NCBI GenBank assembly: GCA_016180525.1
Contig: JACPBB010000003.1
Location: 38,395 to 102,394, forward strand
Length of the DNA stretch: 64,000 bases
Direction of reading: 5' to 3'
Source: Parcubacteria group bacterium
GTDB taxonomy: Bacteria; Patescibacteriota; Minisyncoccia; Phycocordibacterales; UBA2135
The notes beneath the pieces were generated by a model. That model was not told the DNA's origin. It saw only the letters and a program-made list of their open reading frames with translations, and did not search any database. The position numbers and the translations under genes are program-made. This document shows, piece after piece, positions 51,897 to 63,509 of this stretch. Within the stretch, counting starts at the first letter, position 1. The number at the start of each line of letters is the position of its first letter.

Positions 51897-52022
51897 TACG
51901 CACTCCTTTATTTAGACAAATCTGTTTTCTATATTCATTAATACAAAAAAGAACCCACAAAGTCAATAAAAAACGGGTCTTCCAGAGGAAGACCCGTACT
52001 AAAAAGAACTATAAAGAACTAT

Positions 52023-53696
52023 TTATTCGCGTGCCCAGATGGAACCCAATGCTTTTTGAAGTTCCTCCGGCCACTTTTGCGGTTCCAAGGCGTTTACCCA
52101 GACCACCGTAGAACGGTGAATATCGGTAATCGCGATTTCAGGAACGGTTCCTGAAACGACCCCTGTTGCGGTACTGCCGCCTTTTTGTTTTTGTGTCACG
52201 ACCGTCGTCATCCAGAAGAACCGTTCTTTTGAGACGCCGTTTACATCCGGAAGCACCCGAATGTAGGGACGATGTTCAACGGGCGTGTTTTGCGTCCAAT
52301 CGTAATTTTTCTTTGAATTGCGCACATAGTCGGCAACTGCGCTCACTCCAATCGCGGACTCACCGTGTTTGAAGTGCCGGTACGCATATTGCGGACCAAC
52401 GCCGTCTGCCGAGACAAAGAAGCTTGTTGAAAGCCCCTGCTTGCCCGTGTCATACGGCTCAAGCGCAAAGTACTGATAGAGTTTCCCCGCCTCCCCTTTC
52501 TTCATGTTGAAGTAGAGAGTAAAGGGCTGTTGATTCATGTCGTCGGGCAAGTCAGCGATCCGCAGATCCCCGACACGATTACCCGGCAAGGGTCCCAGAA
52601 AACCTTCCTGGAACCGCAAGCTTTTTGCCATGAACCGTGACACCGCATACGGCATCACATTCTGCCCTTTCAGAAACTCATGTTTGCCAATCTCTTCAGG
52701 TGGAATCCATTCCCCGCATCCTTTAAGAATGTATGGAATGAAATCAAGCGCCGCTTCCCACGAGTAGTCGTGGTCACTTTGCCTGATTACCTGAACGCCG
52801 CCAAATTCCGGCCAAGGAAAGAAGATGCCTTCCCACTTTATGAGTGTGACAACTTGAACCCACTTGCCGGCATCATCTTTCATGAAGAGGATGTTGCCCG
52901 GCTCGTAGTTTAAGAATCGCCACAGGCCAAATGAACGGCGTGTGCATGTGGTGGCATTTCGTGAAAACGGAAGCTGCTCACCTGCGGTAAACGAGACACC
53001 GTCCCGATGCTTTTTTGAAAGCTCCGGAGAAGCAGATGTCGCAGGCAAATGCACCACTTCCTGAACCTTTCCTAAAAACCGCTGCACAAAGTATGTCGGT
53101 GCAATCGCTGAGGTCCATTCATACCGATCTCCCGTACGCACCATGTTCGGCGGCGTTGCCACCTCCGTTTCATTGATGCGTTCGTTTACGAGCGTGTGGA
53201 CACTGTTTAACGGCAGTATCCGCTCGTAATCAGTAATCGGCAATGTCTGAAGATCAACAATCTTTAAAGTTTCATACCTCCAGTATGAAGTAATGTAATG
53301 ATTTACCTCCTTACCCAAGACGACGATGGCAACGCCTGCGCCACATGCAAGGAGTGACACGAATGCCCTCCAGCGCGCCGAGCGTTTTCTCACAATCATC
53401 CAGGCAAGAGACATGACAATGAGCACCGTAAGCAAGCTTCCGAGATATATTCTTCCGGTAAGCGCAAACGGCTGAACAAAATTGCGTTCTACATACATGC
53501 CACCGACAACAAATGCCGACAGAATGAATGTGAGAATAGGACGATTTAGAAAAGCCCTACCCAGTGCACGAATCGGACCAAATATCATATTCCAGGGAGA
53601 CCATGACGCTTCACGCCATGCCCCCTTTTCCGCTGCGGATATTGTTTCTTTTGCGTCCACCTGCTCACCTTGCGGTTCAAGCGGAGTGTCGTTCAT
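52023..53696 (-). CDS. Operon gene 6/6: membrane protein (3 N-terminal TM) with large about 400-aa C-terminal domain, unknown function
   Basis: ATG overlaps the upstream stop as TAATG; GC about 50%. Confidence 0.4.
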   Translation of the reverse strand: MNDTPLEPQGEQVDAKETISAAEKGAWREASWSPWNMIFGPIRALGRAFLNRPILTFILSAFVVGGMYVERNFVQPFALTGRIYLGSLLTVLIVMSLAWMIVRKRSARWRAFVSLLACGAGVAIVVLGKEVNHYITSYWRYETLKIVDLQTLPITDYERILPLNSVHTLVNERINETEVATPPNMVRTGDRYEWTSAIAPTYFVQRFLGKVQEVVHLPATSASPELSKKHRDGVSFTAGEQLPFSRNATTCTRRSFGLWRFLNYEPGNILFMKDDAGKWVQVVTLIKWEGIFFPWPEFGGVQVIRQSDHDYSWEAALDFIPYILKGCGEWIPPEEIGKHEFLKGQNVMPYAVSRFMAKSLRFQEGFLGPLPGNRVGDLRIADLPDDMNQQPFTLYFNMKKGEAGKLYQYFALEPYDTGKQGLSTSFFVSADGVGPQYAYRHFKHGESAIGVSAVADYVRNSKKNYDWTQNTPVEHRPYIRVLPDVNGVSKERFFWMTTVVTQKQKGGSTATGVVSGTVPEIAITDIHRSTVVWVNALEPQKWPEELQKALGSIWARE

Positions 53697-54376
53697 TACA
53701 GTCTCCCTCTTTTTGTGAAGTTGGCAATGATTTCCTGCGCACTCGACTCTATCTTTATCTCTGCAGGAGCCAAGGTTGCCTTCAGCGTCTCTGCCGGAAT
53801 TTCTGGTTTAGACACCACTACAGGAGTTTCCTCTCGGTGTACGCTGAAGACATATTTTTTCCAGAACGAAAGGAGCCGCGATGGAGCTGAAGTGAGAAGC
53901 CCTTTTGAGACAGCCACAAGCTCTTCGCCTTTCTCTTCCGCTTCTTTCTTTACCGCGTTTAAGTCAATGTGTTCTGCCCTTTCAGTCGCCGTATCAATTA
54001 CCTCAAACACCTCTTCTCTTCGCTGAAACAGGCGATAGAAGGGATTTCCAAGGGCAAGTCCGATAAGCATCGCCGGCACCTCAACAAGCCAGAGGATAAT
54101 TTCTGCCAATAGATTTATATCATGTCCCCAGATCATGTAGATGCTCTGGGCAGTTGAAATCAGAAACGCAATTGTCGCTTTTCGGTGAGTCTTTTGGTTG
54201 TACATGAACCCCCGCACGACCTCTGGCGGTATGGGCTCCTTGTGACAAATATCATAGAGCCACCGGTATACATGAATGCCATACGTTCTGTCAAGGAAAT
54301 ACCACGCAACTCCCAAAATCATGTAAAGCACGATGCATGTGAGCGCGTAATTCCATACGTTGAGAACTGCCTGCAT
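53696..54376 (-). CDS. Operon gene 5/6: membrane protein (4 TM) with cytoplasmic C-terminal region, unknown function
   Basis: Start chosen at MQAVLNV (AGGAGGG RBS 8 nt upstream) rather than the longer ORF to 54448. Confidence 0.4.
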   Translation of the reverse strand: MQAVLNVWNYALTCIVLYMILGVAWYFLDRTYGIHVYRWLYDICHKEPIPPEVVRGFMYNQKTHRKATIAFLISTAQSIYMIWGHDINLLAEIILWLVEVPAMLIGLALGNPFYRLFQRREEVFEVIDTATERAEHIDLNAVKKEAEEKGEELVAVSKGLLTSAPSRLLSFWKKYVFSVHREETPVVVSKPEIPAETLKATLAPAEIKIESSAQEIIANFTKRGRL

Positions 54377-54393
54377 GGTCGGTCCCTCCTTTC

Positions 54394-55650
54394 CTAGGGT
54401 TGGAGCATGAGCGGAGTGTAGTTTGCCGCAAGATATCCGGCAACCCACTCACGCTTTGCTTTTCCGAATTTTTTATAACAATTCAGGAAAAAGTTTTTAT
54501 CGTGGGTGTAAAGCTCAAGAATATTTCTCGGCTCACATCTGGTCAGCAATATCCACAGTACATCCTGCGTTGCTGGATGCAGATGTGATGCCGGCTCAGC
54601 AAGAAAGAACGAGAGTTCATCCGAGAGCTCCGGCAGAGTTTTCTTTGCAAGAGCCATCGCGATAAATCTTTCCAGCTCAAAGTACATTTCAGGAATATTT
54701 TTCTTATGTTTTCCGACAAGCTGCTTTCGTTGCGTTGACGTAAGATTATCCCAGTCAATATTTTTTTCAAGATCAAGTAGAGAATGCGCCAGCAAAACCT
54801 CTTTTTTCCGAATGAGCAAATCCGGCGTTTCCTTATATCGATCGGGTATAGAGATCCACCCCGCGTCCCAGAGGAAACGGAGCAGTCCATAGTCCTTCTC
54901 GTAGAGGAAAAACAGAATCGTGCCATCCGGTACCGAAGTCTCGCTATAGAGAGCTTCATCTTCAAGAATAAGTACATCATTTCCATCTGCTCCGCGGAGC
55001 ACTGCTGCCCCGCCGAAAGCAGTCGTGTAGAAATCCTGAAAGGCGCCAAAGTCTGACATCCGCTCGATAACCACTCGACGCCTTCTCAAATCGCCATGAA
55101 TCCGTGCGTGTTCGCGGATTTTTTCCTGAACTTCCGAATTCAGACAATTTGTTCCTTCAAAAAAAGCATCAATGAGCTTTTGTTGTTCAATCGCCGCTTT
55201 AGAAAGCTCGCCCGCGTCTATTTTGGGCACGATTGAATTCAGAAGGAGAAGATCAGCCGGACTTTCAAAACTTGCAAGCTGGTTGTCAAAATCAATGACA
55301 AGTCCGTGTGTTGCGGTAATATCCGCGATCTCGCGAAAATTACCGTCAAATACGGAACGCAACATCCGGCGCATCCATGAGTATGTCGGAAAATATACCG
55401 GCTTTTTGAATTGCGCTTGAGATACGATAATCGCCATCGGATTGGCCACATCGTGGCAGAGATAAAAGGTGTTTCCTTTTTCCTCCGCCACTTCAGGGCT
55501 CCATCCCGCTCCATCAATATTAATCCGCTTCAGTCTTGTCGGCTCAATGCCCGCAATGCGCAAACATTCGTTATAGCGGTCCACAAGCTCCCTGCTGTCA
55601 AGCGGAACAAGTCCCGCATAGAGGAGCTTGTTGCCTATCAACTGTTTCAT
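54394..55650 (-). CDS. Operon gene 4/6: 418-aa soluble protein, unknown function
   Basis: Start overlaps the AAA gene's stop (ATGA); no motif. Confidence 0.4.
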   Translation of the reverse strand: MKQLIGNKLLYAGLVPLDSRELVDRYNECLRIAGIEPTRLKRINIDGAGWSPEVAEEKGNTFYLCHDVANPMAIIVSQAQFKKPVYFPTYSWMRRMLRSVFDGNFREIADITATHGLVIDFDNQLASFESPADLLLLNSIVPKIDAGELSKAAIEQQKLIDAFFEGTNCLNSEVQEKIREHARIHGDLRRRRVVIERMSDFGAFQDFYTTAFGGAAVLRGADGNDVLILEDEALYSETSVPDGTILFFLYEKDYGLLRFLWDAGWISIPDRYKETPDLLIRKKEVLLAHSLLDLEKNIDWDNLTSTQRKQLVGKHKKNIPEMYFELERFIAMALAKKTLPELSDELSFFLAEPASHLHPATQDVLWILLTRCEPRNILELYTHDKNFFLNCYKKFGKAKREWVAGYLAANYTPLMLQP

Positions 55651-57659
55651 TCCCTTCCTCCTACGTGTTTTGAGGCTGGTCTCTTATGCACTTCGCCATA
55701 GCGAGACGTAGCATCATCTCTTACTTTCATTTGTTTTACGGTATCTTCCACTTCGCGATTATACGACGCGTCAAGGATTGAAACCATGGTATTGAGATAT
55801 TTGAATGTCTCTTCATAGAGCAACTCATGGAACTTAAGTCCTCCCATGTGTTCTAACATCAATTTCACAATCATATCTTTCTTTGTATCATACGGATGAA
55901 CAACGAAGCTTTCACGCTTCGTGAGCCATTCTTCCGGAAAATCAAAATCCAGAAGCCGCGAACCGACAGCAACCTGAATGTTGCGTACGTCCCGCGAGGA
56001 GAAAAACGGATATTCCTGCTGCAGCTTTACAAAAAGCGCGGCATAGAAATCATGTTCATGCGGATTGTGCTCACTCTTAACCTCATCAATAATGCGAGCC
56101 AATTTACGGTCTCGCACGGTTTCGAGCGCTTCAACCGTCCGTTCAACCGTATTTTTGAATTTCTGGCCGGAAAGATATTCGTAATCACCCGGCCATTCTA
56201 AGTTAACAATGTTACTCTTATATTTATCATACCCACCTGTCCACAGTCTCATTTGGTCAAGAAAGTCCGCGCGTGTCCGGGCTCCGTCAACATCCATGCG
56301 ACCCAAAACACGCGAGAGCACGGCTTTATCCACCTGCTCCGGAATGTTCGTGGCGAACATGATGATGACATTGCCTCGATTAATCGCGGAAGCTCCCTCG
56401 GTTCTCCGAAGAAAGACCCCGATTATTTCACGCACACCCGATGAAACGCCTTGCATGCTCCTATCCTGAAAACTGTTTTCCGCGTCATCAACCGGCGCGA
56501 GCAATAGCTCATGCGAGTTAGAGAGTGGCGCCATCCAGTTTTCCATATTTTCGGCCGAACCGCCCTGAAACGTCGAAACAATAGCGTTCGGGAACGGATG
56601 CGGACGAAATGGAATATTAAGCGCATCACAGTAATCTTTTACCATCGTGAGAATCGCCGCGATGAGAAGAGTTTTACCGGTACCCGGAATGCCTTTCATG
56701 AGGTAAATCCACGGGAAACCGCCAAGCTCAACCATGGGGTTCATTTTCTTTTCAAAATCATAGGCAATGAGCGCTTGCGCAAGCCGATACGCGTATAGTT
56801 TCGCGATGCGGTTGCCCACAATCGTGTTGATATCAACACGTTTAAATTCAACGGCAACATGAGCACCAAAGGCGTCTCCATGGAAGCCATTTACAGAAAA
56901 CGTCGTTTTCTCAAGACGATAGTTGCGCTCTGTATACTGTTCCGTGTGCTTTAGAGATTGCGATTTACCTTTGATTTCCTCAAGTACTGCCGCAAAGTAA
57001 AGCTCGGTCATCTTTCGAAAATCAACACCTGTGAGCACTCCTCCACTTTTTAGGTACGAACCTAAGTGGAAGAGCGTGCATTGCATTGCCGAGAGCTGGC
57101 CCGAAAGTGAAATCATCTCGGGCAACCCGCGGAATGAAAGTGCTGATTCGGATATATCCGCTTCCTGAGAACTCTGTTGAAGTTTCCATACGATGAAGTA
57201 TGAGAGCACGAACGCCGTGATGGCCGCGTGCGTCTCCGACTTATCGCGGAATTCAACTTGCTCCATTTGCGTAGTCAGCTGATTCTTACTGTTTCTTTCA
57301 CGAAGTGTCTCGAGCCCGGATACTTTCGCATACAAGCTCGCAACATGAAGTGCGATGCACAATCCTGTGCGCATTACGTTAAGCGTCTGATTTACGTGCT
57401 CATTCATGAGTTCATCGCCGCCGCCAATGGGGCGTGCGACATCAAGGATTGAAATAGTTTCGTTTCGTGAACTATCCCGTGAAGCTGGTTTCCATCCTAT
57501 TGGCTTCTGTGGTGATTTTACCTCAAGCTCACTCTGAAGTTCAGCGACACTGCGACGCGGGTCCCATTGAACCGACTTCAGCAGATTTGTCGCTTGCTTT
57601 AAGTAATGCGCGAGTTGTTCTCGCGTGACGGGAATTTCAGAAGCGGTGTTAGCCGACAT
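55647..57659 (-). CDS. Operon gene 3/6: AAA+ ATPase (classic AAA clade) with about 330-aa N-terminal domain of unknown function
   Basis: Walker A 'GIPGTGKTLLIAA'; sensor-1 region 'VIIMFATNIPEQVDKAVLSRVLGRMDV' (the ATN-x-P-x-x-hD-x-A-h-x-R-x-GR pattern of classic AAA). Start set at MSANTASE, with AGGAGGG 7 nt upstream. Confidence 0.6.
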   Translation of the reverse strand: MSANTASEIPVTREQLAHYLKQATNLLKSVQWDPRRSVAELQSELEVKSPQKPIGWKPASRDSSRNETISILDVARPIGGGDELMNEHVNQTLNVMRTGLCIALHVASLYAKVSGLETLRERNSKNQLTTQMEQVEFRDKSETHAAITAFVLSYFIVWKLQQSSQEADISESALSFRGLPEMISLSGQLSAMQCTLFHLGSYLKSGGVLTGVDFRKMTELYFAAVLEEIKGKSQSLKHTEQYTERNYRLEKTTFSVNGFHGDAFGAHVAVEFKRVDINTIVGNRIAKLYAYRLAQALIAYDFEKKMNPMVELGGFPWIYLMKGIPGTGKTLLIAAILTMVKDYCDALNIPFRPHPFPNAIVSTFQGGSAENMENWMAPLSNSHELLLAPVDDAENSFQDRSMQGVSSGVREIIGVFLRRTEGASAINRGNVIIMFATNIPEQVDKAVLSRVLGRMDVDGARTRADFLDQMRLWTGGYDKYKSNIVNLEWPGDYEYLSGQKFKNTVERTVEALETVRDRKLARIIDEVKSEHNPHEHDFYAALFVKLQQEYPFFSSRDVRNIQVAVGSRLLDFDFPEEWLTKRESFVVHPYDTKKDMIVKLMLEHMGGLKFHELLYEETFKYLNTMVSILDASYNREVEDTVKQMKVRDDATSRYGEVHKRPASKHVGGRE

Positions 57660-58827
57660 GTTCGACCCTCCTTTCTTCCTGGTCGTATGCCAAAAACTGC
57701 ACATCTCCGGAGAATTCCGGAAATAGCGCGCGATCTTCGGCGGTTAAGTGTTGGCGAAACCGGTGCGGCATGAGCGCGAAACGAGTCATAGATGTTGACC
57801 CGCGTCTCACAAGCTCGCGATCCGTCTTTGGCACGTGGAAAATTTGTCGTGCCTTCTTTTTTCCAAGCGAGAACAACGAGTCAGGCATTTTTTCCTTTGT
57901 TGACTGCACAATTTCAGTCTCAAACAGTAGCACAAAATCTTCTGGCAAGAGATGCGTGTCGTCAAAACAATTCTGCATCCTTACCAGAAAGCTTTTCTGA
58001 TTTGTTTCAACACTGGAAAAAAGCGGCGAATAAACGGGGCCGATTCTGTTTCGCTTTATGACTATCGGATAGATATTCGGCAAAATTTCGTCAAGTCGAA
58101 TACCGACAGCGCGAAGCTCCTCTGGAGCTCGCTCACCGATGTGCTCAACGGCCTCCAGGAGACCAATGAGTTCAGGGCCCCCCTCTTCAAGTGGTAGAGT
58201 TCCGTTTTCCATCTCATGCTCAAAAAGCATAAGATAGACATACGGCAAGTTGGTTGCCGAATCATAGCATGCCCAAGAAAAATAGTACGCTTTCCGATTT
58301 TTATTCCGAATTGGAACATCTTCTGGAGCGCGATATACTTTTCCCGGAGTGAATTTGAAGAACATGGTTCGTAGATCAAGCATTTCAAGATATGTCCGGT
58401 CTGCACACTGCCACAGTAAATCAGCGAGTTTCTGATTATTTAATTTCTGTTTCTCCGGAGATGCTTCCTGTATCATCAATATATTGAGTATTTTTTCCTT
58501 CAATTTTTGAGAAGGTAGGAATTTTGGCAACCGTTCATCCCGCGTAGACAAGTCAGCGAACAGCTGACTGATATCCATCCACATCGGAAACCCCGAATCC
58601 GCGATCTCGAGCTCGTCCGTAGATTTCCAGCTGGGGCTATGCACATGTTTGAGTTGCAGCGCCTCTACTGTTTTTTGCAATTTACCCATATAAATCGCCA
58701 TTGATTCAAATTCAGAACTTTTGACGTTGCCATAATATATTCCGAGCATAGAAAATGCGCGGGCGAGCAAGCGTGTATACGCACTATAATCAATGCGTTG
58801 CGCAGTAGTTTTCTCTCGAGCCGTCAT
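57649..58827 (-). CDS. Operon gene 2/6: 392-aa soluble protein, unknown function
   Basis: Overlaps the AAA gene start by 11 nt; no motif. Confidence 0.4.
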   Translation of the reverse strand: MTAREKTTAQRIDYSAYTRLLARAFSMLGIYYGNVKSSEFESMAIYMGKLQKTVEALQLKHVHSPSWKSTDELEIADSGFPMWMDISQLFADLSTRDERLPKFLPSQKLKEKILNILMIQEASPEKQKLNNQKLADLLWQCADRTYLEMLDLRTMFFKFTPGKVYRAPEDVPIRNKNRKAYYFSWACYDSATNLPYVYLMLFEHEMENGTLPLEEGGPELIGLLEAVEHIGERAPEELRAVGIRLDEILPNIYPIVIKRNRIGPVYSPLFSSVETNQKSFLVRMQNCFDDTHLLPEDFVLLFETEIVQSTKEKMPDSLFSLGKKKARQIFHVPKTDRELVRRGSTSMTRFALMPHRFRQHLTAEDRALFPEFSGDVQFLAYDQEERRVEHVG

Positions 58828-58906
58828 TTGTCTCCTCCGTGTTTGGGGTTAGTAGAAAAACAGGGGCCCGAGAGCCCCTGTGAAGACGCGTTGAGAGCAA
58901 TATGCA

Positions 58907-60232
58907 TCACGCCGCGTCCACGGTCTTACGATGGCTTGCGACCGAATCGTAGCTGGTATCACGACCATATCCATTGCTGAACTGTTCAAGTATGTCATCG
59001 AGCCTTTTTTCAAAATTTGCTCGCGCCTCAGCACGGGCCTCAGAAATTTCTTCAAGCGTTTTAAGATCTTTTGGAGCGCGCTCTATCCGATCAAGGATTG
59101 CTTTTTGGCCTCCCGTAATCATCTTGGCCATAGCTTCCATGCCCTTCATATCTACGGTAGTCGCGACGTCATCGATCATCTTCATCGCTTCTTGGTCAGC
59201 CGTCGCCTGCATGGCGCCAATCTGGCTGTCAAAAATAGTTTCGCGCTCCTTCACACCCATCTGCAAGGTTGCAACCCATGCATGATGGTGCTCCAGGAAC
59301 TGACGCTGTCCAGCAACGTGAGTTTTGTAAATCTCAATGAATCGCTCTTGCTCCTGCAAAACCATAAAATTCTTGTTTTGCTCTTCCCGCGCCTTATCGC
59401 GCTCCTTGGTTACTTCGGAGATTTCAGTTTCAAGACGAGCGGCCTCTTCGGTTCCCTGCTGAACTTCATTTCGCTGAGCGACGAGAGTCGCGAGCTGTGC
59501 TTCGTGATTTGTAAGATTTTTTGTAAGAACTTCAATGTTTGCTACCAGCTCTTCGCGCTTTGCCAGCCCTTCCACAAGAGCAGCATCCACCGACTGGAGA
59601 TCCTCTTCAATGAAGCTAACGCGCCCGACGGCATTGTCAATCGCAATCTGCGTGCATGCCTGAATCCTCTGCATCGAGGTGCTAAGGTCTGCATTGATGA
59701 GCCGCTCGCGCTGCTTCGCCGAAGCAATCTCTTGTGCGGCTTTCATGCCGGCTTCCGCGCTCTCGATATCCTTCTTCGCTTTGGCAATCGCCTTGTCGCG
59801 TCTTCCGAAGAAAATGTTGAACATCTTCTTTTCCGCCTTAGCAAGATCTGATTTTGCGCGGCCAAACATCGCCTCCGCGTCATCAACAATCTTCTGCTCG
59901 TCCGGATTTAACTTTTCAAGGGCGTCAATCGACACGCCAATTTCCTTATACTGCTCTCCAAGCGCAATCATTACTCGAGCGATATCTTTTGTCGTCGCAT
60001 CAACGGCAGTCCGCGCAGACTTAAGGTCCGCAGCAAGAATACCAGCGCGATCCACGTCTCCAGTGCTGAGTGCTTCCTGAATATCTTTGGCAATGGTTTC
60101 AAAATGTTCAACAGCCTGAGCGGCCTTTTCGGACCGCTCTTGCATCTCTTTTGCCTGATGATCAGCCATATCGGCAATCATTCGAGGGTCTTTCGCGCGA
60201 ACCTGTGCGGTTCGAGTACCTTTCTGTACCAT
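58907..60232 (-). CDS. Operon gene 1/6: about 440-aa all-alpha coiled-coil protein (Ala/Lys/Glu-rich), unknown function
   Basis: Start set at ATG (MVQKGTRTAQ, RBS AAAGGAAGG 5 nt upstream). The supplied ORF extends to a TTG at 60283. The heptad-rich sequence suggests PspA/ESCRT-III-like or TelA-like helical scaffolds, which is inference. Confidence 0.45.
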   Translation of the reverse strand: MVQKGTRTAQVRAKDPRMIADMADHQAKEMQERSEKAAQAVEHFETIAKDIQEALSTGDVDRAGILAADLKSARTAVDATTKDIARVMIALGEQYKEIGVSIDALEKLNPDEQKIVDDAEAMFGRAKSDLAKAEKKMFNIFFGRRDKAIAKAKKDIESAEAGMKAAQEIASAKQRERLINADLSTSMQRIQACTQIAIDNAVGRVSFIEEDLQSVDAALVEGLAKREELVANIEVLTKNLTNHEAQLATLVAQRNEVQQGTEEAARLETEISEVTKERDKAREEQNKNFMVLQEQERFIEIYKTHVAGQRQFLEHHHAWVATLQMGVKERETIFDSQIGAMQATADQEAMKMIDDVATTVDMKGMEAMAKMITGGQKAILDRIERAPKDLKTLEEISEARAEARANFEKRLDDILEQFSNGYGRDTSYDSVASHRKTVDAA

Positions 60233-60270
60233 GGCGTCCTTCCTTTGTTTGCCTTGGGGTTGGTGGGTAT

Positions 60271-60289
60271 GTCCTTTTGTCAAAGGACA
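60271..60289 (-). promoter_or_regulatory. Palindromic site containing a TTGACA hexamer upstream of the six-gene operon (operator/-35 candidate)
   Basis: gtccttt-tgtca-aaggac; the minus strand reads ...cctttGACAaaaggac. No convincing -10 was seen. Confidence 0.25.
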
Positions 60290-60406
60290 AGAGTACAGTA
60301 AATAGGGCTTAAAAACCCTATTTAAAGCTCCGTAACTCTAATAACCTTCTACACTATTTTAACAAAAAAGTCAAGTGTTTTGGGCATGCGCAATACATAT
60401 CAATAT

Positions 60407-61117
60407 TTATAACCCTTTTGATGAATTTTCAGAGTGATATTCGGGAACAACCTTAAGCCCCAATATCAGAGCAAAAATAATTGCGAATCCACACATGATT
60501 GACGGGATTGTGTTTGCCGTTAGTTTCAATGTCGTGAGTACAAAAACCATCGGCACGATAAACGAGAGATATCCGACAACCATAAAGAAGAGTGCCCCAC
60601 CCTTTCCGTGTATCGTGCGCAATTTTTGAATCCATTCAATTGACTCTCCGATTCCCAAAAATAAAAATCCAAAATAGTATGTGGTATAAAGATATGCGAG
60701 TACTTGAGCGGTATTAAAAATTATGTAATTGCCCGTGCACACCGGAGATGTCAGCGTATTGGGACCAAATATAAAATAGATGCTGAATAAAAACGCGAGC
60801 GCGTAACCAAGTTTGAGTAATGGTTTTTCTCCCGTAACAAGACATACAAGATGATATCCGAGAATCGGAAGAAATGTGATGGCAACAAAACCAATCTGCG
60901 CCCACATAAAAATATTTTCACCCGTGCAAATATGGTATTCAGCAGCTTGGAAGAATGCCAGCAGTATAAGTATTGCTGTTGCTATCCGCCCAAACAAAGT
61001 ACTGTGATAGCGAAGAAGCGTATAGAGCGCGAGCGCACCTTCTACCAGTACTGTCGCCACCATTACTTCCGGTGTAAAACATTTAAAAGAAGATTTATCT
61101 TTTAAAAATCTGAACAT
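60407..61117 (-). CDS. Hypothetical polytopic membrane protein
   Basis: 236 aa, about 7 TM helices. Confidence 0.4.
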   Translation of the reverse strand: MFRFLKDKSSFKCFTPEVMVATVLVEGALALYTLLRYHSTLFGRIATAILILLAFFQAAEYHICTGENIFMWAQIGFVAITFLPILGYHLVCLVTGEKPLLKLGYALAFLFSIYFIFGPNTLTSPVCTGNYIIFNTAQVLAYLYTTYYFGFLFLGIGESIEWIQKLRTIHGKGGALFFMVVGYLSFIVPMVFVLTTLKLTANTIPSIMCGFAIIFALILGLKVVPEYHSENSSKGL

Positions 61118-62904: not shown

Positions 62905-63183
62905 TTATTTTATTACAGTACAGATAGTCGGTTGAGGAATCTCCAGACCAAGTTCTTTGGCGGCACTAATCCATTCTTTGATTGCTTCTTCTCCCATGGA
63001 AATGGCTTCTGCCTTTGTTTTTCCATCCGCCATACAGCCGGGCAATTCAGGAACTGTAACTACAAAACATCCATCAGCCTCACTCCATTCAACAAGCATT
63101 GAATACCGCGAGAATTCTTTTGCCATGACCAGTATTCCTTTCTTAAACTTCCGAATTTCTGGATAAAGAATATCAATTTCCAT
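62905..63183 (-). CDS. HicB-like (UPF0150) antitoxin-family protein, apparently orphan
   Basis: 'YSMLVEWSEADGCFVVTVPELPGCMADGKTKAEAISMGEEAIKEWI' matches the HicB_lk/UPF0150 core. No HicA-like ORF is adjacent on either side. Confidence 0.5.
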   Translation of the reverse strand: MEIDILYPEIRKFKKGILVMAKEFSRYSMLVEWSEADGCFVVTVPELPGCMADGKTKAEAISMGEEAIKEWISAAKELGLEIPQPTICTVIK

Positions 63184-63252
63184 TTTTTTGTCAAGTAAAA
63201 TTGCATTAACTATTTTCTATTAGAGTCCTGCCATTAGAAAATCCTGTCTCAA

Positions 63253-63329
63253 AAAGACAGGATTGGCGGCCCCGGCAGGACTCGAACCTGCAACCTGGAG
63301 ATTAGAAATCTCCCGCTCTATCCAGTTGA
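63253..63329 (-). tRNA. tRNA-Arg (anticodon TCT), CCA encoded
   Basis: Hand-folded: GGCCTCG-TA-GCTC-AACTGGATA-GAGC-G-GGAGA-TTTCTAA-TCTCC-AGGTT-GCAGG-TTCGAGT-CCTGC-CGGGGCC-G-CCA. Confidence 0.8.
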
Positions 63330-63416
63330 GCTACGAGGCCGCTGTATAACAAAAACAGAAAAAAGAACAATTTTCTCCTCCTTTCCGTTCAAATCCCAGT
63401 AAAAAAACAGAGGGGG

Positions 63417-63509
63417 TGGTAGGCCTGGAGGGATTCGAACCCCCAACCGTGCGCCGATCTAGCGCTCATGGATCATAAATCCACCGCTCTGCCGTTGAGC
63501 TACAGGCCC
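63417..63509 (-). tRNA. Atypical 93-nt tRNA: canonical acceptor/D/T arms and CCA, anticodon loop TTTATGA (anticodon TAT, Ile-AUA-type) plus a 23-nt variable-region insertion
   Basis: GGGCCTG-TA-GCTC-AACGGCA-GAGC-G-GTGGA-TTTATGA-TCCAT-[GAGCGCTAGATCGGCGCACGGTT]-GGGGG-TTCGAAT-CCCTC-CAGGCCT-A-CCA. Confidence 0.5.

What the first reader, a model, noticed from the sequence alone, without database searches (positions are those of the whole stretch)
63417..63509. Atypical 93-nt tRNA with anticodon loop TTTATGA and a 23-nt hairpin insertion in the variable region
Acceptor stem, U8, D-arm, T-arm (GGGGG-TTCGAAT-CCCTC), discriminator and encoded CCA are all canonical, so this is a real tRNA gene. However the 7-nt anticodon loop presents TAT at positions 34-36, a tRNA-Ile(UAU)-type that decodes AUA and is rare in bacteria. 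In addition, 23 nt (GAGCGCTAGATCGGCGCACGGTT, able to form a GCGC/GCGC stem) lie between the anticodon and T arms, far longer than class-I variable loops. A TAT anticodon implies unusual AUA decoding. Alternatively the extra hairpin could be an intron-like or processed insertion, as seen in some CPR rRNA genes.
Basis: seen in the sequence. Interest (0 to 1): 0.6.

Follow-up and report, generated by a model that had tools for sequence, protein, structure and literature searches.

The report
Isoleucine tRNA with second anticodon arm
This is a real tRNA gene that reads the isoleucine codon AUA and carries an extra hairpin showing GAU, the anticodon of the ordinary isoleucine tRNA; the same five-arm design recurs in dozens of phage genomes, was not found described in the searched literature, and may be how the tRNA gets charged with isoleucine.

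Summary
Window 63417-63509 (minus strand) encodes a 93-nt tRNA with anticodon UAU, G37, A73 and CCA. A 15-nt hairpin sits inside a 23-nt variable region (ARAGORN; Rfam tRNA 60.7 bits).

It is not a one-off. I collected 43 distinct sequences with the same five-arm plan. They come from phage contigs, two cultured Synechococcus phages, metagenomes and this Parcubacteria (CPR) genome.

- Arm 1 always carries UAU, with pyrimidine 32, U33 (one exception) and a purine at 37.
- The extra arm is a 3-5 bp stem with many compensatory changes. Its 7-nt loop always has GAU at the centre, and is often CUGAUAA, the canonical tRNA-Ile(GAU) anticodon loop.
- Deleting either arm in silico leaves a canonical tRNA-Ile in 30 of 30 tested.
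- AUA makes up 24% of isoleucine codons in the window. Fifteen AUA codons checked in two conserved genes align with Ile/Val in homologues.

Best explanation (inferred, about 0.5): arm 1 decodes AUA, and the extra arm presents GAU to isoleucyl-tRNA synthetase, which charges UAU tRNAs poorly. The intron reading is not supported. No description was found in the searched literature. Aminoacylation assays are decisive.

The parts
63417..63509 (-). Whole tRNA gene: 93 nt, five arms, with encoded CCA at 63417-63419 and discriminator A73 at 63420.
   Evidence: ARAGORN. Rfam tRNA 60.7 bits. Family model R1 88.9 bits.
63503..63509 (-). Acceptor stem, 5' strand GGGCCUG. It pairs with CAGGCCU at 63421-63427. 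Pair 1-72 is G-U and pair 4-69 is C-G.
   Evidence: All 7 acceptor pairs covary in the family.
63486..63500 (-). D arm GCUC-AACGGCA-GAGC of class-I type: 4-bp stem, U12-A23, A14, A15, G18 G19.
   Evidence: U8 and A14 are present in 43 of 43. The 15-48 pair is A-U in 41 and G-C in 2.
63468..63484 (-). Arm 1, the decoding anticodon arm: GUGGA-UUUAUGA-UCCAU. Anticodon UAU lies at 63475-63477. It has U33, G37 and A38.
   Evidence: In the first 30 distinct members: UAU 30/30, U33 29/30, purine at 37 30/30. All 5 stem pairs covary.
63466..63467 (-). Linker GA between the two arms. It is 2-4 nt long in the 30 members tabulated.
63451..63465 (-). Arm 2, the extra arm: GCGC-UAGAUCG-GCGC, with the loop triplet GAU at 63457-63459. 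It looks like a degenerate copy of the tRNA-Ile(GAU) anticodon arm.
   Evidence: GAU is invariant in scans that did not constrain it: 10/10 and 16/16. All 4 stem pairs show changes on both sides, with 97.5% of cells paired. After arm 1 is deleted in silico, ARAGORN calls tRNA-Ile(gat) in 30/30.
63445..63450 (-). 3' tail ACGGUU. Its last five nucleotides behave as a class-I variable loop (positions 44-48).
   Evidence: The last base covaries with position 15: A15-U48 in 41, G15-C48 in 2. Ordinary phage tRNA-Ile(GAU) genes have AGGUU at the same place.
63428..63444 (-). T arm GGGGG-UUCGAAU-CCCUC.
63264..63340 (-). Neighbouring tRNA-Arg(UCU), 77 nt downstream on the same strand. It is followed by a hairpin (AAUCCUGUC-UUUUUGA-GACAGGAUU) at about 63236-63260. 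It probably belongs to the same transcription unit.
   Evidence: Both tRNAs are absent from the syntenic site of related genomes.

Best explanation
The gene encodes a functional five-arm isoleucine tRNA.

Arm 1 sits where the anticodon arm sits (5 bp, loop UUUAUGA). It has the marks of a decoding loop: pyrimidine 32, U33 and a purine at 37. It reads AUA.

Arm 2 lies in the variable region (GCGC/GCGC, loop UAGAUCG). It is a trimmed copy of the anticodon arm of the major tRNA-Ile(GAU), in which only the GAU triplet and the stem are kept.

Bacterial isoleucyl-tRNA synthetase reads G34 or lysidine-34, A35 and U36, and it charges UAU tRNAs poorly. I therefore infer that arm 2 presents GAU to the synthetase as the isoleucine identity signal while arm 1 does the decoding. 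Identity would then be uncoupled from the anticodon. The tRNA could read AUA without TilS/lysidine and without an adapted synthetase, which would suit a gene that moves between phages and hosts.

Shown here: the structure, its conservation and covariation, the GAU and UAU invariance, and AUA meaning Ile in this genome.

Inferred: that arm 2 stays in the mature tRNA, that the synthetase binds it, and that the tRNA is charged with isoleucine.
For: 1. It is a real tRNA with a class-I isoleucine-type body: A73, C4-G69 and U12-A23 (identity set from PMC9976931).

2. It belongs to a family of 43 distinct sequences with five helices.
- 98.3% of cells are paired, against 70.4% in shuffles.
- The covariation score is 0.763 against 0.210, reached by 0 of 500 shuffles.
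- All 4 pairs of arm 2 show changes on both sides.
- RNAalifold independently predicts the same structure.

3. Both triplets are invariant in scans that did not constrain them.
- Arm 2 had GAU in 10/10 sequences and 16/16.
- Arm 1 had UAU in all of the roughly 60 tandem-arm hits of a scan that fixed only arm 2 and the T arm.

4. The arm 2 loop is CUGAUAA in several members, identical to the canonical tRNA-Ile(GAU) anticodon loop. Ordinary phage tRNA-Ile(GAU) genes match arm 2 plus its tail.

5. In silico, deleting arm 1 gives tRNA-Ile(gat) in 30/30, and deleting arm 2 gives tRNA-Ile(tat) in 30/30.

6. Arm 2 is not built to decode. Its position-33 equivalent is A in 21/30 and its position-37 equivalent is U or C in 20/30. 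Arm 1 keeps U33 and a purine at 37.

7. Arm 1 has lost synthetase determinants, and arm 2 keeps GAU and mostly C29-G41.
- Arm 1 has U34 in all members, G37 here and in 13/30, and C38 in 20/30. The window itself has A38.
- Arm 1 here has G29-C41, not C29-G41.
- The arm 2 equivalent of C29-G41 is C-G in 24 of 31.

8. E. coli IleRS charges UAU tRNA inefficiently, and the residue that reads the wobble base (Trp905) is conserved in tilS-bearing species (PMC3575796).

9. AUA is 24% of Ile codons in the window (17.9 per 1000). Fifteen AUA codons in TypA and DnaX align with Ile (69-78%) and Val (19-25%) in 119 homologues each, as AUU codons do.
Against: - There is no biochemical evidence: no aminoacylation, expression or mature-length data.
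- The geometry is unresolved. A 4-bp variable arm does not obviously place its loop where the synthetase's anticodon-binding domain sits. The model may need arm 2 to swap into the anticodon position, or a different contact on the enzyme.
- Only GAU is conserved in the arm 2 loop. A37 and A38, which matter for E. coli IleRS, are not (the window has C and G there).
- Class-I tRNA(UAU) genes without arm 2 are also common in phage and giant-virus contigs, so the arm is not indispensable everywhere.
- In a cell that co-evolves with its own synthetase, a mimic is less obviously needed.
- I could not see the rest of the genome, so tilS, tRNA-Ile2(CAU) and the IleRS type are unknown.
Confidence: 0.5

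Rival explanations
1. Arm 2 is a conserved handle for some other partner, or a purely structural element. Candidates are a modification enzyme, a phage or host factor, or protection from anticodon nucleases. Charging would then depend on the body and on A35-U36 of arm 1.
For: The conservation and covariation show selection, but they do not name the partner. Other large-phage tRNAs also carry variable-region hairpins without any anticodon mimic: Lys-UUU, Arg-CCU and CAU tRNAs. So extra arms may have other uses in phages.
Against: The invariant triplet is exactly the anticodon of the cognate major isoacceptor, on a 7-nt loop that is often identical to CUGAUAA. Every long tRNA with UAU carried GAU, and no other triplet was seen. 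I know of no other GAU-specific tRNA-binding protein (own knowledge).
Confidence: 0.2
2. One arm is removed after transcription, like an intron or processed insertion. The mature product would be an ordinary 76-nt tRNA-Ile(UAU) or tRNA-Ile(GAU).
For: Removing either arm in silico gives a canonical cloverleaf in 30/30. Giant-virus relatives of the class-I UAU tRNA do carry short introns in the anticodon loop.
Against: At 15-19 nt the arm is too short for a group I intron, and no second helix or pair of 3-nt bulges is evident around it. Bacteria and their phages are not known to have a tRNA-splicing endonuclease for such inserts (own knowledge). If arm 2 were discarded, its GAU and its stem would not need to be kept. 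If arm 1 were discarded, UAU, U33 and the purine at 37 would not need to be kept.
Confidence: 0.1
3. It is a two-headed tRNA. Either arm can stack under the D stem, so the molecule decodes AUA through UAU and AUU/AUC through GAU.
For: Arm 1 is joined canonically on its 5' side (a single nucleotide 26). Arm 2 is joined canonically on its 3' side (a 5-nt variable loop whose position 48 covaries with position 15). Arm 2 plus the flanking A-R or U-G pair has the length of an anticodon stem.
Against: The arm 2 loop lacks U33 in 22/30 and has a pyrimidine at position 37 in 20/30. These features are not expected in a loop that decodes on the ribosome. At least one carrier contig, L180, also encodes a normal tRNA-Ile(GAU).
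Confidence: 0.08
4. It is a class-II-like tRNA charged by LeuRS, SerRS or TyrRS, so that AUA is read as another amino acid. Precedents are nematode nev-tRNA-Ile(UAU) and allo-tRNAs.
For: Long-arm tRNAs with UAU that are charged with Leu, or predicted to take Ser, exist (PMC3333845, PMC7609411). About 45 Ser-like UAU tRNAs turned up in the genome scan.
Against: The body is class I: a 4-bp D stem, a short D loop and A73. It has a 7/5 acceptor/T configuration, and 6 nt separate the extra stem from the T stem. AUA positions in TypA and DnaX are Ile/Val in homologues, with Leu at 3-4% and Ser absent from the top residues.
Confidence: 0.03
5. It is a decaying or non-functional gene, with the hairpin left over from a duplication.
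For: The gene is missing from the syntenic site in related Parcubacteria. Its G1-U72 pair and G37 are unusual.
Against: All five helices are intact here and covary across 43 distinct sequences. The conserved tertiary positions are in place: U8, A14, A15-U48, G18 G19 and the T loop. The gene is identical in three independent assemblies. G1-U72 and G37 are common family states.
Confidence: 0.04

Closest known systems
Bacterial tRNA-Ile(UAU), also called tRNA-Ile3, of Mycoplasma mobile, Bifidobacterium, Neorickettsia and some lactobacilli
   Same: It is a bacterial tRNA with a genomically encoded UAU anticodon. It reads AUA without lysidine and has an isoleucine-type body with A73 (PMC3575796, PMC8450103).
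   Different: The known ones are described as ordinary tRNAs; none of the papers read mentions an extra arm. In M. mobile the tRNA has t6A37 and relies on a changed synthetase (Arg in place of Trp905). Here there is a fifth arm carrying GAU and G37, and no evidence of synthetase adaptation.
Class II tRNAs (bacterial Leu, Ser, Tyr; Sec), whose long variable arm is an identity element
   Same: An extra stem-loop lies between the anticodon and T arms. For Ser and Tyr the cognate synthetase reads that arm (PMC9976931, PMC7609411).
   Different: Here the body is class I. The extra stem is followed by a full 5-nt variable loop rather than 1-2 nt. The conserved feature is a loop triplet equal to an anticodon, whereas for tRNA-Ser the review reports low sequence conservation of the arm and proposes that its orientation is what matters. 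No isoleucine tRNA of this kind is listed in the identity review.
Nematode nev-tRNA-Ile(UAU) and bacterial allo-tRNA(UAU)
   Same: They have a long variable arm combined with a UAU anticodon (PMC3333845, PMC7609411).
   Different: Those have Leu- or Ser-type class II bodies and are charged, or predicted to be charged, with Leu or Ser. The allo-tRNAs have 8/4 or 9/3 acceptor/T stems and keep the tRNA-Ser determinants (long arm and G73 in bacteria). This tRNA is 7/5, has A73 and an Ile-type body, and AUA means Ile in its genome.
Anticodon-arm mimics that recruit a synthetase outside the anticodon, such as the thrS mRNA operator bound by ThrRS (own knowledge)
   Same: A hairpin copying the cognate anticodon loop is used as a synthetase recognition module.
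   Different: Those mimics sit in mRNAs and regulate translation. Here the mimic would sit inside a tRNA and serve aminoacylation identity, which is untested.

Membership tests
tRNA (Rfam RF00005) | Cloverleaf matching the covariance model above the gathering score. | tested here: met
   60.7 bits against a cutoff of 29, covering model positions 1-71 of 71. ARAGORN also calls it.
Five-arm tRNA-Ile(UAU/GAU) family defined here | Five helices, UAU in arm 1 and GAU centred in the 7-nt loop of arm 2, followed by a class-I variable loop and A73. | tested here: met
   Model R1, built without the window, scores it 88.9 bits over positions 1-92 of 92. Ordinary tRNAs score 29-51 bits. All listed features are present.
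Isoleucine tRNA (bacterial identity set, E. coli) | Discriminator A73. | tested here: met
   A at 63420, and A73 in 43 of 43 family members.
Isoleucine tRNA (bacterial identity set, E. coli) | Anticodon G34 or lysidine-34, with A35 and U36. | tested here: inconclusive
   Arm 1 has U34-A35-U36, so G34/L34 is not met. Arm 2 has G-A-U. Whether the synthetase reads arm 2 is untested.
Isoleucine tRNA (bacterial identity set, E. coli) | A37 able to carry t6A, and A38. | tested here: not met
   Arm 1 has G37, so t6A is impossible, although A38 is present. Arm 2 has C and G at the equivalent places.
Isoleucine tRNA (bacterial identity set, E. coli) | Stem pairs C4-G69, U12-A23 and C29-G41. | tested here: met
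   C4-G69 and U12-A23 are present. C29-G41 is absent from arm 1 (G29-C41) but present at the equivalent pair of arm 2.
Isoleucine tRNA | The tRNA is charged with isoleucine, and its codon means Ile. | tested here: inconclusive
   AUA behaves as Ile in TypA and DnaX alignments. Charging of this particular tRNA cannot be tested with these tools.
Class II tRNA (Leu/Ser/Tyr type) | A long variable arm together with the class II D-arm architecture, with the extra stem abutting the T stem. | tested here: not met
   The arm is present, but the D arm is class I (4 bp, 7-nt loop). Six nucleotides separate the extra stem from the T stem.
allo-tRNA | An 8/4 or 9/3 acceptor/T configuration with SerRS determinants (long arm and G73). 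| tested here: not met
   It has 7/5 stems and A73.
Intron-containing tRNA (group I or bulge-helix-bulge) | An insert with a self-splicing fold (over 200 nt), or two 3-nt bulges flanking a 4-bp helix. | tested here: not met
   The insert is 15-19 nt. It folds as a plain hairpin flanked by single strands. No Rfam intron family matches in the window.

The most novel reading that the evidence does not exclude
The molecule is a bistable, two-legged tRNA. Arm 1 is joined canonically to the D stem and arm 2 is joined canonically to the variable loop, so either arm can stack into the anticodon position. The synthetase would bind the conformer that presents GAU and charge it with isoleucine. The ribosome would then use the conformer that presents UAU. 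That would be a natural, portable way to separate tRNA identity from decoding, spread by phages and picked up by a CPR bacterium.
Probability: 0.2. Interest if true: 0.95.

Novelty: new variant of a known kind. Interest (0 to 1): 0.8.

Why it matters
Reading AUA without misreading AUG is a classic problem. The known solutions are lysidine, agmatidine, the recently reported aminovaleramide cytidine derivative, pseudouridine or inosine in eukaryotes, or a UAU tRNA paired with a mutated synthetase.

A tRNA that carries the cognate anticodon as a separate recognition arm would be a further solution. It would also be the first natural case I know of in which a copy of an anticodon arm inside the tRNA supplies its identity.

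It would explain how phages can bring an AUA decoder into hosts whose synthetase rejects UAU and whose TilS they cannot rely on. It would also give synthetic biology a ready-made way to reassign anticodons while keeping charging intact.

The family is already sitting in public phage genomes labelled simply 'tRNA-Ile', so the idea can be tested directly in cultured Synechococcus phages.

Tried and rejected
1. The genome-contig scan used a pattern tied to the window's own T loop and anticodon-stem ends. It returned mostly unrelated Ser-like class II tRNAs with UAU and did not recover the family.

2. BLAST of the 93-nt gene against GenBank phages found only a T-arm fragment. The family was found with structure-aware patterns instead.

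3. Archaeal look-alikes L004 and L057 (UAU, G37, variable-region hairpin) lack GAU and were set aside.

4. I tried to reach the rest of the MAG to look for tilS, tRNA-Ile2 and IleRS. Only 17-kb Logan contigs are retrievable. No TilS-like domain appeared among the 40 or so window ORFs scanned.

5. I looked for prophage or defence signals around the gene. There is only a HicB-like antitoxin, and PHROGs and PADLOC gave nothing informative.

6. Loop-loop pairing between the two arms, and pairing of GAU with the T loop, were considered. Neither is conserved across members.

7. I looked for anticodon mimics on other long-arm phage tRNAs (Lys, Arg, CAU). None was seen.

8. Seven literature searches found no description of this architecture (PMC7609411 read). 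The library lacks most subscription journals.

Full report
**Observation.** ARAGORN reports three tRNAs in the window. One is tRNA-Ile(tat) at 63417-63509 on the minus strand. Infernal with Rfam RF00005 matches 63420-63509 at 60.7 bits (gathering score 29). The match is full length, with 19 inserted nucleotides in the variable region.

The transcript is GGGCCUG UA GCUC AACGGCA GAGC G GUGGA UUUAUGA UCCAU GA GCGC UAGAUCG GCGC ACGGUU GGGGG UUCGAAU CCCUC CAGGCCU A CCA. RNAfold gives the cloverleaf plus an extra hairpin, although one sequence alone is only marginally better than shuffles (z -1.82). The same gene is identical in three independent Logan assemblies of groundwater samples.

**Where it comes from.** The window is a cellular chromosome fragment.
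- It encodes DnaX, TypA, a copper ATPase, MacB-type and MFP transporters, HflK/C, a DEAD-box helicase, a Na+/H+ antiporter and a queuosine salvage protein.
- TypA and DnaX are 100% identical to proteins that NCBI names from a 'Parcubacteria group bacterium' MAG on a 133-kb contig. The nearest relatives are Patescibacteria.
- A neighbouring run, SRR12113421, is cited as a source metagenome in PMC11549363.

**It is a member of a family.** I ran scans of public contigs with patterns that constrained different parts of the molecule.
- Fixing the D arm and the UAU loop found class-I tRNA(UAU) genes in more than 120 viral contigs. Among them were two with a window-like extra arm.
- Requiring a long gap before the T loop found eight more in metagenomes.
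- Fixing only the extra arm and the T arm gave 66 viral contigs. About 60 of them carry the same five-arm gene. The rest are ordinary class-I tRNA-Ile(GAU) genes, plus one spurious match.
- Fixing only the D arm, the T loop and a long distance between them gave 16 further distinct members.

In total there are 43 distinct sequences. Two cultured Synechococcus phages carry it: SynMITS9220M01, where it is annotated simply as 'tRNA-Ile', and DSL-LC02, where it is unannotated. Carrier contigs include tRNA arrays, contigs of 190-400 kb with a tmRNA gene, and a contig with a T4-type topoisomerase, so most carriers look like phages.

**Structure.** Results on a 31-sequence alignment that excludes the window:

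| Measure | Observed | Shuffled control |
|---|---|---|
| Cells forming standard pairs (five helices) | 98.3% | 70.4% |
| Covariation score | 0.763 | 0.210 (reached by 0 of 500 shuffles) |
| Cells paired when partners are slid by 1-3 columns | – | 38-49% |

- All four pairs of the extra arm have changes on both sides. Stems seen include GCGC/GCGC, GUGC/GCAC, GCAC/GUGU, ACGG/CCGU and CGGC/GCCG.
- RNAalifold predicts the same five helices without guidance.
- A covariance model built without the window scores the window gene 88.9 bits. Ordinary tRNAs score 29-51 bits.
- The last base of the 3' tail covaries with position 15: A15-U48 in 41 members and G15-C48 in 2. The tail is therefore a true variable loop docked in a canonical core.

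**The two loops.**
- Arm 1 carried UAU in all of the roughly 60 tandem-arm hits of the scan that did not constrain it.
- In the 30 members tabulated, arm 1 has pyrimidine 32 and a purine at 37 in all, and U33 in 29.
- The extra arm has a 7-nt loop with GAU at its centre in every member recovered by scans that did not constrain it: 10 of 10 and 16 of 16.
- In eight of the first 30 distinct members the loop is CUGAUAA, CUGAUAC or CUGAUAU. That is the canonical tRNA-Ile(GAU) anticodon loop or a one-base variant of it.
- Ordinary phage tRNA-Ile(GAU) genes align with the extra arm plus tail (anticodon arm plus AGGUU).
- In the extra arm, the position-33 equivalent is A in 21 of 30 and the position-37 equivalent is U or C in 20 of 30. 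That loop is therefore not built to decode.
- Deleting arm 1 in silico makes ARAGORN call tRNA-Ile(gat) in 30 of 30. Deleting the extra arm gives tRNA-Ile(tat) in 30 of 30.

Each gene is thus two overlapping canonical isoleucine cloverleaves. Arm 1 is joined canonically on its 5' side and arm 2 on its 3' side.

**Codon meaning.** In 60 non-overlapping ORFs of the window, AUA accounts for 24% of Ile codons, or 17.9 per 1000. Eight AUA codons in TypA align with Ile 78%, Val 19% and Leu 3% in 119 homologues. Seven in DnaX align with Ile 69% and Val 25%. These are the same profiles as AUU. AUA therefore means isoleucine here, which argues against a Leu, Ser or Tyr reassignment.

**Mechanism.** Established knowledge:
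- Bacterial IleRS identity rests on A73 and the anticodon loop (G34 or lysidine, A35, U36, t6A37, A38). Minor pairs are C4-G69, U12-A23 and C29-G41 (PMC9976931).
- E. coli IleRS charges UAU tRNA poorly. M. mobile manages through an Arg replacing Trp905, a residue conserved in tilS-bearing species (PMC3575796).

In this family arm 1 has lost determinants: U34 everywhere, G37 in 13 of 30 and C38 in 20 of 30. In the window itself arm 1 has G37 and G29-C41 but keeps A38. Arm 2 keeps G-A-U always and the C29-G41 equivalent in 24 of 31.

The most economical reading is that arm 2 supplies the isoleucine identity signal and arm 1 decodes AUA. This remains an inference. The geometry is open: either arm 2 contacts the enzyme from the variable-arm position, or the two arms swap stacking. 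No charging or expression data exist.

**History in this genome.** Two related Parcubacteria (DnaX 73-76% identical) keep the gene order TopA, DprA, SerRS, POTRA protein, Dus, DnaX. Neither has a tRNA between Dus and DnaX. The window has about 1.3 kb there, holding two small ORFs, this tRNA, tRNA-Arg(UCU) and a HicB-like antitoxin. The gene is therefore lineage-specific at this site. That fits acquisition by transfer, possibly from a phage. The closest extra arm and T arm are in L197, a 13-tRNA array that also places Arg(UCU) next to it.

**Comparison with the known.** It works like a bacterial tRNA-Ile(UAU). It differs in having the fifth arm and G37. It resembles class II tRNAs in having an extra arm, but it fails their D-arm and junction features. 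It is not an allo-tRNA (7/5 stems, A73) or a nev-tRNA type (AUA is Ile). Seven full-text searches and the review of non-canonical tRNAs gave no description of a GAU-bearing extra arm. Subscription-only literature was not searchable.

**Verdict.** This is a real, conserved and apparently undescribed tRNA architecture. Its proposed mechanism is plausible and can be tested directly.

Noticed in passing
L005-L062 (genome-contig loci), e.g. L028 5751-5838, L038 2340-2427, L018 5112-5201: About 45 genomes carry a class II, serine-type tRNA with a UAU anticodon and A37. It has G73, a GGCUGAGYGG-type D arm and mostly perfect 7/5 stems. Carriers include Acidobacteriota, Bacteroidota (among them cultured Winogradskyella jejuensis, Wocania ichthyoenteri and Aureitalea), Desulfobacterota, Acidovorax delafieldii and Marinobacter iranensis. 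If charged by SerRS and used, it would put Ser at AUA. By my count most do not have the 8/4 allo-tRNA shape.
   Followed up: partly
L063-L182 (viral contigs): Class-I tRNA(UAU) genes of 72-78 nt with G37 (loop CUUAUGA), and so unable to carry t6A37, are very common in giant-virus MAGs and phage contigs. The scan hit its 120-locus limit.
   Followed up: partly
L077 1596-1659; L158; L183; L185; L187; L189; L192; L194: The same giant-virus tRNA(UAU) occurs with a 13-14 nt insert in the anticodon loop (…CUUAUGAAAUUUUCGAAGACAGCCGA…), which looks like a eukaryote-type intron.
   Followed up: no
L004 2950-3038; L057 1899-1987: Methanoregulaceae/Methanomicrobiales MAGs have a class-I-body tRNA(UAU, G37) with a variable-region hairpin of about 20 nt that lacks GAU. 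This is a separate case of an extra arm or a non-canonical intron.
   Followed up: no
L180 6915-6992: The ordinary tRNA-Ile(GAU) of a 248-kb IMG/VR contig has C33 instead of the near-universal U33 (loop CCGAUAA).
   Followed up: no
L252 12748-12841; L304; L211 9361-9451; L327: Large phage contigs also carry class-I-type tRNA-Lys(UUU), tRNA-Arg(CCU) and a CAU tRNA with G37. Each has a variable-region hairpin with no anticodon-like triplet. The Lys (L252) and Arg (L211) hairpins share an AAUAAC-like loop.
   Followed up: no
L272-L386 (viral contigs): Most of about 90 further hits are tRNA-like genes with 14-26 extra nucleotides between the D arm and the T arm. They do not parse as a 5+7+5 anticodon arm. 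Their nature is unknown.
   Followed up: no
window 52000-61100: A block of roughly 9 kb has higher G+C (0.48 against about 0.41). It encodes an AAA ATPase (55647-57704), a DUF6638 protein (54394-55650) and five ORFs with no informative Pfam, PHROG or PADLOC hit. In related genomes tRNA-Gln lies 0.2-1.6 kb after dnaX, so most of the block is absent there. It looks like an inserted island of unknown function.
   Followed up: partly
window 62905-63183 (minus strand; L001 5525-5803): A HicB-like antitoxin gene lies directly downstream of the two tRNA genes. It is part of the segment missing from relatives.
   Followed up: partly
window 63509/63421 and family alignment A3 columns 1/93: Pair 1-72 of the acceptor stem is a G-U wobble in the window and in 21 of 43 family members, with C1-G72 in 6. 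This is unusual for elongator tRNAs and unexplained.
   Followed up: no
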